Shown here: positions 49,228 through 52,689 of the stretch, piece by piece
How positions within the stretch are numbered: the stretch's first letter is position 1
Layout of the letters: each line of letters opens with the position of its first letter
Virus record (IMG/VR): IMGVR_UViG_3300027777_000028
Span: 34,377 to 98,376 of that record
Reading direction: 5' to 3' (one strand)
Length of the DNA stretch: 64,000 nt
Source of the DNA: a virus
The notes under the pieces: generated by a model
Seen by the model: the letters and a program-made list of their open reading frames with translations, nothing else
Database searches by the model: none
What the model was told of the DNA's origin: nothing
Position numbers and translations under genes: made by a program

Positions 49228-50028
49228 ATGAAACAAAAAAACACAGGATCTCCAATTAATCAGGAGGAAATTTCGCACTACCTTAAAGACATTAGAAAAA
49301 TTAAGGTAATGACCGCAGAAAGAGAACGAGAGTTGGCGAAAATTATGAAGTCTGATGATTTAGAATTAACCCAAAAACAAAGAATTGAAGAAGAACTTTT
49401 AACGGGAAACCTTCGTTTTGTAATTACGGTGGCAAAACAATATCAAAATCAAGGTTTGGATTTATCAGACTTGATTGCTGAAGGAAATTTGGGTTTAATG
49501 AAGGCGATTAAAAACTTTGATTGGAACAAAGATTTGAGATTTATATCATATGCGGTTTGGTGGGTAAAACAATCTATAATCCAATCTTTAAATGATAATT
49601 CAAGAACAATTCGTCTTCCAGTCAATGTGGTTCAGGATCTTCATAAGGCAAAGAAAGAGGTTGAACAGACCGGAAAGAAACTTGAGGATAAGTTTGCTTC
49701 ATTACCCTCAATGATAGACTTAGATATGAATATCAATGAAGACGGAGATACGTTATTGGATATGATTGCAAATAAAGATGCTGAATTACCTGATGCGATA
49801 TTTGACACAAAAGACATTTTAAAAGACAAATTACTAAAACTTTTGGATGTTTTGGATGATAGGGAGAGATCAATTGTTGGTGATTACTTTGGATTAACAG
49901 GAACACCAAGAACATTGGAAGACATTGGATCTGATTTTGGATTGACTAAAGAACGTGTTCGTCAGATTAAAGAAAAGGCTCTTCGAAGACTTAGAAATGA
50001 TTCTTCAGAATTGTTTGATTATTTCTAA
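49228..50028 (+). CDS. RNA polymerase sigma70-family factor resembling the Bacteroidota primary sigma (no region 1.1)
   Basis: YLKDIRK, NLRFVITVAKQYQNQGL, DLIAEGNLGL, FISYAVWW, RTIRLP, TLEDIG..FGLTKERVRQIKEKALRRLR. Confidence 0.92.
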   Translation: MKQKNTGSPINQEEISHYLKDIRKIKVMTAERERELAKIMKSDDLELTQKQRIEEELLTGNLRFVITVAKQYQNQGLDLSDLIAEGNLGLMKAIKNFDWNKDLRFISYAVWWVKQSIIQSLNDNSRTIRLPVNVVQDLHKAKKEVEQTGKKLEDKFASLPSMIDLDMNINEDGDTLLDMIANKDAELPDAIFDTKDILKDKLLKLLDVLDDRERSIVGDYFGLTGTPRTLEDIGSDFGLTKERVRQIKEKALRRLRNDSSELFDYF

Positions 50029-50034
50029 AAAAGT

Positions 50035-50065
50035 TTTGGCAAATTAAATATTTGTATTATCTTTG
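50035..50065 (+). promoter_or_regulatory. Bacteroidota-type promoter with no downstream ORF
   Basis: TTTG (50035-50038), 19-nt spacer, TATCTTTG (50058-50065). Confidence 0.65.
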
Positions 50066-50067
50066 TA

Positions 50068-50272
50068 TAACAAACGACGATAGATATAATCAATTAAGTT
50101 TGTCGGGTTTGAATTTTTAGAATCGGACCAAAAAAAAAAAGGGTTGAACCGAGATTACCCTAACAACTCGGCGGAATGAGACACGAGGTTCTCAAGGTGA
50201 AAATCCTCAATCTTATCTATATGGTGAGATGAAACTACACTCCCCCACTGATATCGGTGGGGGTTTTATTTT
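50068..50272 (+). ncRNA. Putative structured non-coding RNA of about 200 nt with two tandem H-type pseudoknots
   Basis: GC-richer ORF-free interval between a promoter and a terminator. Pairings: AGGGT/ACCCT + CCGAG/CTCGG; TGAGA/TCTCA + GAGG/CCTC; ATCTTATC/GGTGAGAT. Confidence 0.55.
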
Positions 50273-50274
50273 TT
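50242..50274 (+). terminator. Intrinsic terminator
   Basis: CCCCCACTGA-TA-TCGGTGGGGG followed by TTTTATTTTTTT. Confidence 0.85.
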
Positions 50275-50723
50275 TATACCCAAATAACTAATTGATCTTT
50301 ACCAACTTTAAACGGGTTATCTAATGATTCTCTAAAAACAGTATATACTTTCAATATCCAGTAAGTCCCCCCTTGAAATTCAGCACCAATCGCAAGAGCC
50401 AACTCCCATTTCAAAGATTTTACCACAAATTCAGTTCCGTCATTAATTTCTCTTTCGACTATTTTTTCTGCAATTTCTTTTTTTGCTAAATTCAATACCT
50501 CTTTAATTTCTGAATTACTAATTTCTCTTTGATTATATTCATATGAGTGTTTGCCTGTTAGTTTGAAACCTTGACCTTCTAATTCTTTTCTATTTTTTCT
50601 ATTGAACGCATGAAGACCACGATCTACTTCTAAATTAAACGATACTTCAATATTTGACACTATTTGAGCAATAGTTTTTTCGATTAATAATTGTTTTTTA
50701 ATTGATTCTCTAAGTAAAGACAT
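50274..50723 (-). CDS. Hypothetical protein, possibly a BECR/DUF4258-like RNase fold
   Basis: HAFNRKNR...REISNSEI...ILKVYTVFR pattern; TATTTAT upstream. Confidence 0.5.
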   Translation of the reverse strand: MSLLRESIKKQLLIEKTIAQIVSNIEVSFNLEVDRGLHAFNRKNRKELEGQGFKLTGKHSYEYNQREISNSEIKEVLNLAKKEIAEKIVEREINDGTEFVVKSLKWELALAIGAEFQGGTYWILKVYTVFRESLDNPFKVGKDQLVIWV

Positions 50724-50766
50724 ATAAATTGTTTATAATAAATATTTATAGAATAAACTTTAAAAC

Positions 50767-52092
50767 ATGAATAGCAAATTTTTACCTTGGTTATTATTGT
50801 TTTGTGCACTTGGACTATCGGGAACGGCAGCATATTATAGTGTATACGGACTTTCAATTATATTTTCAGGAGTTTCAATACCTGTAATCATTATGGGATC
50901 TTTTTTGGAGATCTCTAAAATATCAATTGCGACTTATCTTCACGATAGTTGGAACAAGGTATATGGTGTGTTAAAGTTGTATTTAACCATGGCTCTTGTG
51001 ACTTTATCGATTTTAACTTCAATTGGTATTTATGGACTTTTGGCCACAGGGTTTCAAAAGAGTATTGCTGGTCTTGAGATCAATAACAAAAAAATTAAAA
51101 ATGTTGAAGTAAAAAAACAAAGGTTTGAGGAAATTAAAAAAGAATTTCAAAAAGAAAAAAAGGGATTGGATAAGGACATCACAAGTTTAAGAACAGCCCT
51201 TTCAACAAGCACAACAACTCAAACTGTTGATAGAAGATCAGGACAAGTTGTTACAAAGGCGAACAATGAAAATAGGAAGGCATTTCAACAACAATTAAGT
51301 ATTGCTCAACAATCAAGGGACACTTTAAGTAAAAAAATTGATAATTTAAACGATAGTATAACAAACTTGGACATTCAAATTTTGGATATATCATCTAAAG
51401 AAATTGAATCGGGAGAATTGGGGGCGATTAAATATCTAAGTGAAATCACGGGATGGGAGGTTAAAAAAACTGCAAACTTTTTTATTTTAACTTTAATATT
51501 TGTTTTTGATCCCTTGGCAATTGCTCTTGTTATATCAACAAATCAAGCATTTAAAAAATATAGAAGAAAAGAAGAGGACGATGAAATCAAACCTGTTATT
51601 AAAGAAATTTTTGAAGAAGACGAAGTTGAGATTCCTGAAAGTTATTTTGCAAATTCTACCCCCCAAGTCACCCCTCAAGTCACCCCCCAAGTCACCCCCC
51701 AAGTTGAGACTGAAATAATTGAAAAAATTGTTGAAGTTCCTGTTGAAGTGGATAGAATTGTTGAAGTTCCTGTTGAAGTAATTAAGGAGGTTGAAAGGAT
51801 TGTTGAGATTCCTGTGGATAGAATTGTTGAGGTAGTTAGGGAAGTCCCCGTAGATAGAATGGTTGAGATAGTTAGAGAAATACCTGTTGAAGTAATTAAG
51901 GAGGTTGAAAAAATTGTTGAAGTTCCTGTTGAAGTGATTAAGGAGATTGAAAAGATTGTTGAAGTTCCTGTAAACTATTATGTTAAAGAAAATGGTGACA
52001 TTTTAGATCAAGAAGGGTATATGATGGACAAAGTCAAACTAGACAAAAAAAATGAAGAATCTAATAGGAGGGTATTATCTTATAAAAAATAA
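50767..52092 (+). CDS. Membrane protein with 4 predicted TM segments, a coiled coil and C-terminal VEVPVE repeats
   Basis: Three hydrophobic N-terminal helices, heptad region, LIFVFDPLAIALVI, repeat tail. Confidence 0.8.
   Translation: MNSKFLPWLLLFCALGLSGTAAYYSVYGLSIIFSGVSIPVIIMGSFLEISKISIATYLHDSWNKVYGVLKLYLTMALVTLSILTSIGIYGLLATGFQKSIAGLEINNKKIKNVEVKKQRFEEIKKEFQKEKKGLDKDITSLRTALSTSTTTQTVDRRSGQVVTKANNENRKAFQQQLSIAQQSRDTLSKKIDNLNDSITNLDIQILDISSKEIESGELGAIKYLSEITGWEVKKTANFFILTLIFVFDPLAIALVISTNQAFKKYRRKEEDDEIKPVIKEIFEEDEVEIPESYFANSTPQVTPQVTPQVTPQVETEIIEKIVEVPVEVDRIVEVPVEVIKEVERIVEIPVDRIVEVVREVPVDRMVEIVREIPVEVIKEVEKIVEVPVEVIKEIEKIVEVPVNYYVKENGDILDQEGYMMDKVKLDKKNEESNRRVLSYKK
51658..51705 (+). repeat. 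12-bp tandem repeat x4 (TPQV)
   Basis: ACCCCCCAAGTC units, near-perfect and in frame. Confidence 0.9.
51721..51972 (+). repeat. Coding repeats (E/D)(K/R)IVEVPVEVIKEV
   Basis: Recurrent gttgaagttcctgttgaagt; a similar block lies at about 41872-41985. Confidence 0.85.
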
Positions 52093-52095
52093 AAT

Positions 52096-52689
52096 ATGAA
52101 AATAATTAAACAATTATTTGATACAAATTTTTCTAAAATTGATAATAAAAAACAAATTGTCTTGGTTCATACGTCAAGAAGTTTGTTCGACTATGTTGTA
52201 TCTTTAAAAACTAGATACAATGGAAAACCACAAAAATTACCACATTATATTGTGGGTCAAGATGGGAAAGTCATTCAACTTTTGGATGACAACGTTAATG
52301 GTAATTATTTTAATAACATCACAATAAATTACAAATCAATAGTAATTTCATTAGAAAATTTGGGTTGGTTAGAAAAAGAACCATTAAAAAATCATCACAT
52401 AAACTGGATCGGCAATATTTATAAAGAAAAAGTTGTAGATAGAAAGTGGAGGGATTATTTTTTTTGGCATCCGTATACGGAGATTCAGTTGGAAAATACT
52501 GCAAAACTTTGTAATAAGTTGTCAAAAAAACATAACATAAATTCAAAGTTTATCGGACATAATACCAAAGTAAAAGGATCGGAAACCTTTTTGGGTATTA
52601 TAACAAGATCCAACTTTGATGAATATGCCACAGACATAAGTCCGGCATTTGATTTTGAAAGATTTAATAACTTATTAAAAAATGAATAA
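52096..52689 (+). CDS. N-acetylmuramoyl-L-alanine amidase (Amidase_2-like), candidate endolysin
   Basis: IVLVHTS, PHYIVGQDGKVIQL, SIVISLEN, YTEIQLE..AKL, FIGHN, TDISPAFDF. Confidence 0.8.
   Translation: MKIIKQLFDTNFSKIDNKKQIVLVHTSRSLFDYVVSLKTRYNGKPQKLPHYIVGQDGKVIQLLDDNVNGNYFNNITINYKSIVISLENLGWLEKEPLKNHHINWIGNIYKEKVVDRKWRDYFFWHPYTEIQLENTAKLCNKLSKKHNINSKFIGHNTKVKGSETFLGIITRSNFDEYATDISPAFDFERFNNLLKNE

What the first reader, a model, noticed from the sequence alone, without database searches (positions are those of the whole stretch)
50035..50274. Independently promoted ~200-nt non-coding RNA with an A11 tract and two tandem pseudoknots
Seen: the longest ORF-free gap in the window, GC-richer than its surroundings, bounded by a canonical Bacteroidota promoter and a strong terminator. 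After A11 (50130-50140), PK1 is AGGGT(50140-44)/ACCCT(50157-61) crossed with CCGAG(50149-53)/CTCGG(50167-71). PK2 is TGAGA(50177-81)/TCTCA(50190-94) crossed with GAGG(50185-88)/CCTC(50205-08), with a possible GGT-GAAA-ATC tetraloop. A hairpin ATCTTATC/GGTGAGAT (50210-50230) follows. I cannot match it to tRNA, tmRNA or a riboswitch I know. Known: type III antitoxin RNAs (ToxI) are ~35-nt H-type pseudoknots with A-rich flanks, and phage mimics of them exist. Inference: an early anti-defence decoy RNA, a nuclease-resistant RNA, a new ribozyme-like motif, or a regulator of the adjacent sigma factor.
Basis: partly seen in the sequence, partly recalled or inferred. Interest (0 to 1): 0.75.

Follow-up and report, generated by a model that had tools for sequence, protein, structure and literature searches.

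The report
Pseudoknotted phage RNA facing an RNase-like gene
This is a real, uncatalogued, strongly conserved knotted small RNA of large freshwater Bacteroidota phages that sits tail-to-tail with a gene for a probable RNA-cutting enzyme, so it is most likely that enzyme's RNA antidote or regulator rather than a partner of the neighbouring sigma factor.

Summary
The stretch is as described: host-type promoter, A11, stems and terminator lie at the stated coordinates. It is the longest ORF-free gap of the window, and its core is GC-richer (42% against 31%). Only 50136-50275 is conserved, in over 100 uncultured freshwater phage contigs. No Rfam family, tRNA or tmRNA matches.

Covariation supports pseudoknot 1: S2 pairs in every sequence, with double changes at 4 of 5 pairs. 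It also supports the P3, P4 and P5 hairpins and the terminator. The first ~60 nt of the transcript and the A11 length are peculiar to this phage and one relative.

The decisive context is the convergent 149-aa gene (50274-50723). All 74 assessable relatives face a small-RNA gene, either this pseudoknot form or a hairpin form with ACGA-containing loops. Its predicted fold weakly resembles RelE/RegB-type endoribonucleases.

Best reading (about 0.5): an RNA antidote or regulator of a phage RNase, like type III toxin-antitoxin pairs in principle but not a member of that family. In other phages the RNA also occurs without the protein. No transcript evidence was obtained. This scan had already flagged the same RNA family in other genomes.

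The parts
50035..50065 (+). Host (sigma-A) type Bacteroidota promoter: -33 TTTG at 50035-38, 19-nt spacer, -7 box TATCTTTG at 50058-65; predicted start near 50070
   Evidence: Sequence. The -7 box consensus TAnnTTTG spans -12 to -5 in flavobacteria (PMC9723704). The full pattern occurs only 4 times on the + strand of the window. Independent promoters of the same type lie 12-24 nt before the RNA core in many relatives.
50070..50129 (+). Non-conserved 5' leader with two predicted hairpins (about 50078-50105 and 50106-50129); truncated copy of another promoter-to-terminator unit
   Evidence: Fold. Shared only with L019. The complete unit, about 145 nt with its own terminator, is in L005 4044-4190. 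The window and L019 lack 53 nt of it and join the core at a shared AAAGGGT.
50130..50140 (+). A11 tract at the junction; relatives have only a short A-rich run here
50140..50171 (+). H-type pseudoknot PK1: S1 50140-44 with 50157-61; S2 50149-53 with 50167-71; loops nearly invariant
   Evidence: In 62 distinct main-clade sequences the four inner S1 pairs, both S2 strands and nearly all loop positions never vary. Divergent clade-B and L185 variants give compensatory changes in S2: 100% paired, 4 of 5 pairs changed on both sides. The model with S2 paired scores clade B about 10 bits higher than the model with S1 paired.
50172..50185 (+). Candidate tertiary contact: C50172-G50185 and G50173-C50184 (linker with the P3 loop)
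   Evidence: Pair 50173/50184: G-C 43, A-U 14, G-U 3 of 62. The A-U cases belong to one clade, so this is a lead, not a proof.
50177..50194 (+). Hairpin P3 (50177-81 with 50190-94); its loop carries a conserved ACGA
   Evidence: 4 of 5 pairs have changes on both sides. ACGA is present in 33 of 33 RNAs that face orf149 and lost in one clade of orphan RNAs.
50195..50207 (+). Hairpin P4, AGG/CCU with a 7-nt UGAAAAU loop
   Evidence: Closing pair: A-U 32, G-U 20, G-C 9, plus U-A and C-G in clade B. The stem is longer in L094, L100, L125 and L082.
50210..50230 (+). Hairpin P5 (50210-17 with 50223-30)
   Evidence: 5 to 7 of 8 pairs have changes on both sides.
50231..50241 (+). Conserved single-stranded stretch (GAAAC...) before the terminator
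50242..50275 (+). Intrinsic terminator (stem 50242-50/50255-63, U tract 50264-75); the stop codon of the convergent gene lies inside the U tract
   Evidence: 7 of 9 pairs covary.
50274..50723 (-). orf149: convergent gene of a 242-member family without Pfam or name; predicted alpha/beta fold with weak likeness to RelE/HigB/ParE toxins and T4 RegB
   Evidence: A convergent small-RNA gene follows in 74 of 74 assessable viral loci and 11 of 11 metagenome loci.
50738..50749 (.). Palindromic phage-type TATTTAT motif between orf149 and the 441-aa gene; likely divergent phage-type promoters
   Evidence: TATTTAT lies within 30 nt upstream of about a dozen genes of the window. It occurs at 50743 on the + strand and at 50744 on the - strand.

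Best explanation
Window 50136-50275 is the core of a small RNA of about 130 nt. In this phage it is extended to about 200 nt by a foreign 5' leader. It is transcribed from a host-type promoter and ends at an intrinsic terminator.

The RNA folds into an H-type pseudoknot followed by three hairpins. Inferred: it works as the RNA partner of the convergent orf149 protein, a probable RelE/RegB-fold endoribonuclease. It would bind the protein and hold it in check, or act as a decoy substrate, through its invariant pseudoknot and the ACGA loop.

Inferred timing: the RNA is made early by the host polymerase, the protein later from a phage-type promoter. Phages that carry the RNA without the protein would use it as an orphan antidote against such RNases of competitors, or for a second, unknown role.

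Shown: conservation, structure, absence from Rfam, and strict gene linkage seen from the protein side. Inferred: RNase activity, binding, direction of control and timing.
For: Conserved family:
- 41 of 80 sigma-guided loci carry the RNA.
- 93 IMG/VR stretches hold the invariant 20-mer.
- One Crocinitomicaceae MAG contig carries it.
- 13 divergent members were found in metagenomes.

Structure: covariation scores exceed all shuffles and all slid controls.

Strand: G-U intermediates, promoters and U tracts all fit the + strand only.

No coding potential: the spacing to the upstream stop codon varies in frame, and the 18-codon ATG frame is absent in one clade.

Linkage to orf149:
- Every assessable orf149 relative faces a promoter-driven small RNA: 22 of the pseudoknot form and 52 of the ACGA-loop hairpin form. 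All 101 loop motifs lie at that place.
- RNAs found by an RNA pattern alone face orf149 in 11 of 11 assessable contigs.
- The RNA stays invariant while the protein drops to 30% identity.

orf149 fold:
- The AlphaFold2 model has pLDDT 78.
- RelE, HigB, ParE, YoeB and RegB chains fill the VIA-align list at Z 3.5-5.5.
- BFVD gives a Tenacibaculum phage protein at E 2e-5 and a T4-type 'site-specific RNA endonuclease' at E 1.8e-4.
- The protein atlas gives phage BECR nuclease families as leads at 0.78-0.80.

Other support:
- ACGA is kept in 33 of 33 linked RNAs but lost in 17 of 33 orphans.
- Precedent for RNA antidotes of protein toxins: type III systems (PMC5086642) and AbiF/RCd22 (PMC12373285).
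Against: - The RNA occurs without orf149 in about half of its distinct contexts. One of these is a 93%-complete 272-kb relative with no orf149 anywhere (positive control).
- The RNase assignment is weak. Z stays under 8. There is no Pfam, PADLOC or PDB sequence hit. hhalign to T4 RegB gives probability 0.2%.
- On the protein tree the pseudoknot form is not one clade. RNA and protein have therefore been reshuffled, which fits a specific lock-and-key pair less well.
- The loss of ACGA is a single evolutionary event.
- No binding, toxicity or expression data exist.
Confidence: 0.5

Rival explanations
1. An autonomous structured small RNA whose invariant pseudoknot binds some other protein or a small ligand, for example a host factor. 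Its place beside orf149 would reflect a shared insertion hot spot or a shared terminator, not a joint function.
For: The RNA stays invariant in phages without orf149. Invariant loops suggest a binding pocket. RNA form and protein phylogeny are not congruent.
Against: 74 of 74 and 11 of 11 orf149 genes face a small RNA of one of two forms. That is hard to get by chance or by synteny alone, given 27-35% protein identity and unrelated flanks such as tRNA clusters.
Confidence: 0.25
2. A cis-antisense, type I-like regulator. RNA and orf149 mRNA are convergent and overlap at the shared terminator, so pairing or transcriptional interference lowers orf149 expression.
For: The orf149 stop codon lies inside the U tract of the RNA's terminator. 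The hairpin has only a poor U tract on the - strand, so orf149 transcripts may run antisense into the RNA gene. The same layout is seen in the hairpin-form loci.
Against: Antisense pairing does not need an invariant pseudoknot or conserved loops. orf149 is a 149-aa soluble alpha/beta protein, unlike the short hydrophobic type I toxins (own knowledge). The RNA persists without orf149.
Confidence: 0.1
3. A 3' element of the sigma-factor operon: a stabiliser, an exonuclease block or a regulator of sigma.
For: In most sigma-adjacent relatives the core starts 2-17 nt after the sigma stop codon, without a host-type promoter.
Against: In many relatives other ORFs or an own promoter separate it from sigma, and 39 of 80 sigma loci lack it within 3 kb. 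In the window a promoter lies between the two.
Confidence: 0.07
4. A mimic of a type III antitoxin (ToxI-like) that neutralises host ToxN/AbiQ-type abortive-infection toxins, or a self-cleaving ribozyme.
For: Phage pseudo-ToxI escape is established (PMC5086642).
Against: There are no repeats. No Rfam ribozyme or antitoxin-like family matches, even at E up to 10. The invariant 20-mer is found in no host genome of 185,579 species apart from one phage-like MAG contig.
Confidence: 0.05

Closest known systems
Type III toxin-antitoxin systems (ToxIN, CptIN, TenpIN; PMC5086642)
   Same: A protein endoribonuclease is paired with a structured, pseudoknot-forming RNA that is thought to neutralise it by direct binding. 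These systems are tied to phage-host conflict, and orphan or mimic RNAs occur in phages.
   Different: Here there are no tandem repeats. The genes are convergent, not RNA-terminator-toxin on one strand. The protein is not ToxN/CptN/TenpN and looks RelE/RegB-like rather than Kid/MazF-like. The module is phage-borne, and was not found in 401 sampled genomes of the order of the one (Crocinitomicaceae) MAG that carries the RNA.
AbiF / RCd22 of a Clostridioides difficile prophage (PMC12373285)
   Same: A phage-encoded toxic protein is neutralised by a non-repeat ncRNA that carries two conserved motifs and acts by direct RNA-protein contact. This resembles the two or three conserved loops of the hairpin-form RNAs.
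   Different: RCd22 lies upstream of abiF. The protein belongs to the Abi_2 family. Neither the Rfam abiF motif nor Abi_2 matches here.
Phage T4 RegB site-specific endoribonuclease
   Same: It is a small phage protein of similar size (153 aa) with a RelE/YoeB-like fold. A T4-type RegB homologue is among the best BFVD matches, and 2hx6 scores Z 4.1. It has a role in shutting off early mRNAs.
   Different: No sequence similarity is detectable. RegB has no known RNA partner. Bacteroidota mRNAs lack the GGAG Shine-Dalgarno target (PMC6847099 abstract).
Type I toxin-antitoxin pairs with convergent 3' overlap (bsrG/SR4, txpA/RatA; own knowledge)
   Same: The layout is tail-to-tail, with the RNA gene overlapping the 3' end of the protein gene.
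   Different: Those toxins are short membrane peptides, and the RNAs act by long antisense pairing rather than through a conserved tertiary fold.

Membership tests
Type III antitoxin RNA (ToxI/CptI/TenpI) | Tandem direct repeats of about 34-40 nt | tested here: not met
   Tandem Repeats Finder and the direct-repeat search find nothing in 50030-50290.
Type III antitoxin RNA (ToxI/CptI/TenpI) | RNA gene upstream of the toxin gene on the same strand, separated by a terminator | tested here: not met
   The RNA (+) and orf149 (-) are convergent in the window and in all 74 + 11 assessable loci.
Type III antitoxin RNA (ToxI/CptI/TenpI) | Toxin of the ToxN/AbiQ, CptN or TenpN families | tested here: not met
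   No Pfam or PADLOC hit for 12 diverse members at E up to 1.
Type III antitoxin RNA (ToxI/CptI/TenpI) | RNA folds into a pseudoknot | tested here: met
   S1/S2 crossing helices; S2 has compensatory changes.
Type III antitoxin RNA (ToxI/CptI/TenpI) | RNA binds, is processed by and inhibits the toxin | not testable with these tools
   Needs co-expression, gel shift and cleavage assays.
Any Rfam 15 family (riboswitches, ribozymes, sRNAs, tmRNA, abiF motif) | Score at or above the family's gathering threshold | tested here: not met
   No hit in the whole window. The best sub-threshold hit is L10_leader, 25.5 bits against 44, driven by the terminator. The hairpin-form loci match tRNAs only. ARAGORN finds nothing.
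RelE/RegB-like (BECR-fold) endoribonuclease, for orf149 | Shared fold | tested here: inconclusive
   VIA-align gives Z 3.5-5.5 to RelE, HigB, ParE, YoeB, RegB and CdiA-CT, below the level at which chance arrangements are excluded. BFVD Foldseek gives E 1.8e-4 to a RegB-type protein, but with rmsd 13. Atlas leads are under 0.9.
RelE/RegB-like (BECR-fold) endoribonuclease, for orf149 | Sequence similarity to T4 RegB and its catalytic residues | tested here: not met
   hhalign gives probability 0.2%. The only aligned stretch puts the invariant His38 and an Arg opposite a His-x3-Arg of RegB; this is a lead only.
Type I toxin-antitoxin (convergent antisense) | Small hydrophobic toxin peptide and long antisense overlap | tested here: not met
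   orf149 is a 149-aa alpha/beta protein. The extent of overlap is unknown, because transcript ends are unmapped.
Transcription-terminating riboswitch or leader | Aptamer plus terminator directly upstream of a regulated gene on the same strand, with alternative pairing | tested here: not met
   In the window the next gene is convergent. In relatives the downstream 441-aa gene has its own conserved TATTTAT-type motif after the terminator. No anti-terminator pairing is visible.

The most novel reading that the evidence does not exclude
A new kind of phage-borne RNA-protein pair. A RelE/RegB-fold RNase is always written tail-to-tail with a dedicated structured small RNA, either a pseudoknot form or an ACGA-loop hairpin form, that restrains or times it. 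Phages that keep only the RNA use it as an antidote in phage-against-phage conflict. The pseudoknot would be a new protein-binding RNA fold.
Probability: 0.35. Interest if true: 0.8.

Novelty: new variant of a known kind. Interest (0 to 1): 0.66.

Why it matters
RNA antidotes of protein toxins are known from only a few families, nearly all studied in Proteobacteria and Firmicutes. This would be an architecturally different example: convergent genes, no repeats and a RelE/RegB-like partner. It comes from abundant, uncultured large phages of freshwater Bacteroidota. The RNA has a compact pseudoknot that barely changes while its neighbour proteins diverge to 30% identity.

It gives a defined, testable RNA-protein pair and a candidate new RNA family for Rfam. 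The orphan copies offer a way to ask whether phages exchange 'antidote' RNAs.

Tried and rejected
- Rfam at gathering and at E-value thresholds, and ARAGORN: nothing real.
- Nucleotide search of cultured phages: no match for the RNA or for 8 kb around it. By protein, the sigma factor has no relative above 40% identity among cultured phages.
- Two pattern scans were mistyped and found nothing. The corrected scan with S2 left free returned only loci already held.
- Five of the six genome hits to the 20-mer are chance matches in GC-rich MAGs without the rest of the element.
- Expression: one lake metatranscriptome holds a 193-nt piece of the sigma gene at 100% identity. Three others hold only an unrelated sigma-like piece. 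No contig covers the RNA. These are contigs, so this says nothing either way.
- The long-range helix of the minimum-free-energy fold (50140-45 with 50202-07) is contradicted by the alignment.
- A coding read-through extension of sigma is rejected, because the frame between stop codon and core varies.
- orf149: no Pfam, PADLOC or PDB sequence match. Foldseek against the PDB gives nothing at E of 0.001 or less.
- orf149 was not found in 401 sampled genomes of the order of the Crocinitomicaceae MAG.
- A MAFFT alignment of the pseudoknot region misplaced the longer loop 3 of clade B. A model-guided alignment was used instead; it leans towards S2, but the pairs can be read directly from the sequences.

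Full report
THE WINDOW. It is part of a 98-kb IMG/VR virus record, estimated 34% complete. Relatives reach 270-300 kb. The genes around the finding are a sigma-70-type factor (49228-50028, +), a convergent 149-aa ORF (50274-50723, -), a 441-aa membrane protein and an amidase.

CHECKING THE OBSERVATION.
- The -7 box TAnnTTTG lies at -12 to -5 in flavobacteria (PMC9723704). That puts the start near 50070 and gives a transcript of about 200 nt.
- The gap 50029-50273 is the longest stretch of the window without an ORF of 50 aa or more. The conserved core has 42% GC against 31% for the window.
- The + strand folds better than shuffles (z -3.2). The - strand does not.
- Rfam 15 has no match at gathering scores, and only terminator-driven noise below them. 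ARAGORN finds nothing.

CONSERVATION. I fetched 80 loci through the sigma protein. Only 50136-50278 is conserved, in 41 of them. In most of these the core begins 2-17 nt after the sigma stop codon.
- The promoter and the two 5' hairpins are shared only with L019. They are a shortened copy of a separate promoter-to-terminator unit that is complete in L003/L005. That copy is joined to the core at a shared AAAGGGT.
- A 20-nt invariant motif finds 93 IMG/VR stretches and one Crocinitomicaceae MAG contig. The other five genome hits are chance.
- Many members have their own canonical TTTG-N19-TAnnTTTG promoter ending 12-24 nt before the core. The RNA is therefore an independent gene in many members of the family; in the sigma-adjacent loci no own host-type promoter is seen.
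- The window's own record holds one copy.

STRUCTURE. On 62 distinct sequences P3, P5 and the terminator covary strongly. P4 covaries at its closing pair. All measures exceed 500 shuffles and the slid controls.
- In the main clade the four inner S1 pairs and all of S2 never vary, so PK1 could hardly be tested there (only the S1 closing pair switches). Divergent members settled it. They came from searching beside orf149 relatives and from a metagenome pattern scan filtered with a covariance model.
- S2 occurs in seven haplotypes, all fully paired. In a model-guided alignment 4 of 5 pairs change on both sides and 100% of cells pair.
- S1 keeps GGG/CCC, and its closing pair switches between A-U and U-A.
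- One further pair, 50173 with 50184, goes G-C, G-U, A-U. It may tie the linker to the P3 loop; this is a lead only.

CONTEXT. The upstream neighbour varies: sigma, several small ORFs, or a promoter. The downstream neighbour is always either the 441-aa gene, which has its own TATTTAT-type motif, or a convergent orf149 homologue followed by that gene.
- Starting from the protein, I found 76 orf149 loci. All 74 assessable ones have a convergent, promoter-driven small RNA.
- 22 are of the pseudoknot form. 52 are of a different form: two or three hairpins whose loops carry a conserved motif of about 14 nt that begins with ACGA. That motif occurs nowhere else in those loci.
- Starting from the RNA, 11 of 11 assessable clade-B metagenome contigs face orf149.
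- The reverse does not hold. About half of the distinct pseudoknot RNAs have no adjacent orf149. The 93%-complete relative L019 has none at all (control).

ORF149.
- The family has 242 members, all unnamed or hypothetical and without Pfam.
- The AlphaFold2 model (pLDDT 78) gives no strong PDB match. RelE, HigB, ParE, YoeB, BrnT and T4 RegB chains dominate the VIA-align list at Z 3.5-5.5.
- BFVD gives a Tenacibaculum phage protein at E 2e-5 and a T4-type RegB at E 1.8e-4.
- The protein atlas points to phage BECR nucleases at lead level.
- hhalign to T4 RegB is not significant.
- I read this as a probable RelE/RegB-fold RNase, held weakly.

FURTHER HINTS.
- ACGA in the P3 loop is kept in all 33 distinct RNAs that face orf149. 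It is lost in one clade of 17 orphan RNAs. This is a single event, so it is only suggestive.
- On the orf149 tree the RNA forms are clustered, but the pseudoknot form is not one clade. RNA and protein genes have therefore been recombined.
- The RNA has a host-type promoter. orf149 has a phage-type TATTTAT motif, which fits RNA first, protein later.

VERDICT. This is a real, new structured RNA family. Its pseudoknot 1 is validated and its pseudoknot 2 is refuted as drawn. Most likely it is the RNA partner, antidote or regulator, of a phage RNase-like protein. It works like a type III toxin-antitoxin pair or AbiF/RCd22 (PMC5086642; PMC12373285). It fails the defining features of type III membership: no repeats, convergent layout, and a different toxin family.

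The sigma gene is a neighbour by synteny only. No expression data could be obtained.

Earlier notes of this scan on other genomes reached the same reading. I saw them after my own analysis and do not count them as evidence.

Noticed in passing
L184-L257 (for example L196, L201, L235, L188), about 20-230 nt past the orf149 stop, opposite strand: A second, unrelated-looking small-RNA form next to orf149 homologues. It has a host-type promoter and two or three hairpins with variable stems and conserved loops that begin with ACGA; the last hairpin is the terminator. It is not in Rfam.
   Followed up: partly
window 50070-50129; L005 4044-4190: The window's 5' leader is a truncated copy of another promoter-to-terminator unit of about 145 nt, possibly a further small RNA. 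The unit is complete in L003/L005. Part of it also lies after the pseudoknot RNA in L030.
   Followed up: partly
window, for example 6678, 10248, 11147, 13519, 22954, 30303, 32409, 42548, 50743, 55048, 61097: TATTTAT lies within about 30 nt upstream of a dozen genes, many of them structural. It is probably a phage-specific promoter class read by the phage sigma factor. The same letters are formed by the last codons and stop codon of the sigma gene just before the RNA in most sigma-adjacent relatives.
   Followed up: partly
L201 34-1207 and 2775-3117 (- strand); also L207, L225, L229: In one clade the orf149/small-RNA pair sits inside a phage tRNA gene cluster: nine tRNAs in L201, on the same strand as the small RNA.
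   Followed up: no
BFVD entry A0A6J5SZS4: A 575-aa protein of an uncultured phage, named 'RNA polymerase sigma-70 like domain', matches the orf149 model at E 1.8e-4. It may be a fusion of a sigma-like domain with this fold.
   Followed up: no
window 50767-52689: The 441-aa membrane protein is followed by an N-acetylmuramoyl-L-alanine amidase. This may be a lysis cassette directly after the RNA/orf149 pair.
   Followed up: no
window 49600-49792: A lake-water metatranscriptome contig is 100% identical to this part of the sigma gene. The phage or a very close relative is therefore present in that RNA library, though DNA carry-over is not excluded.
   Followed up: no
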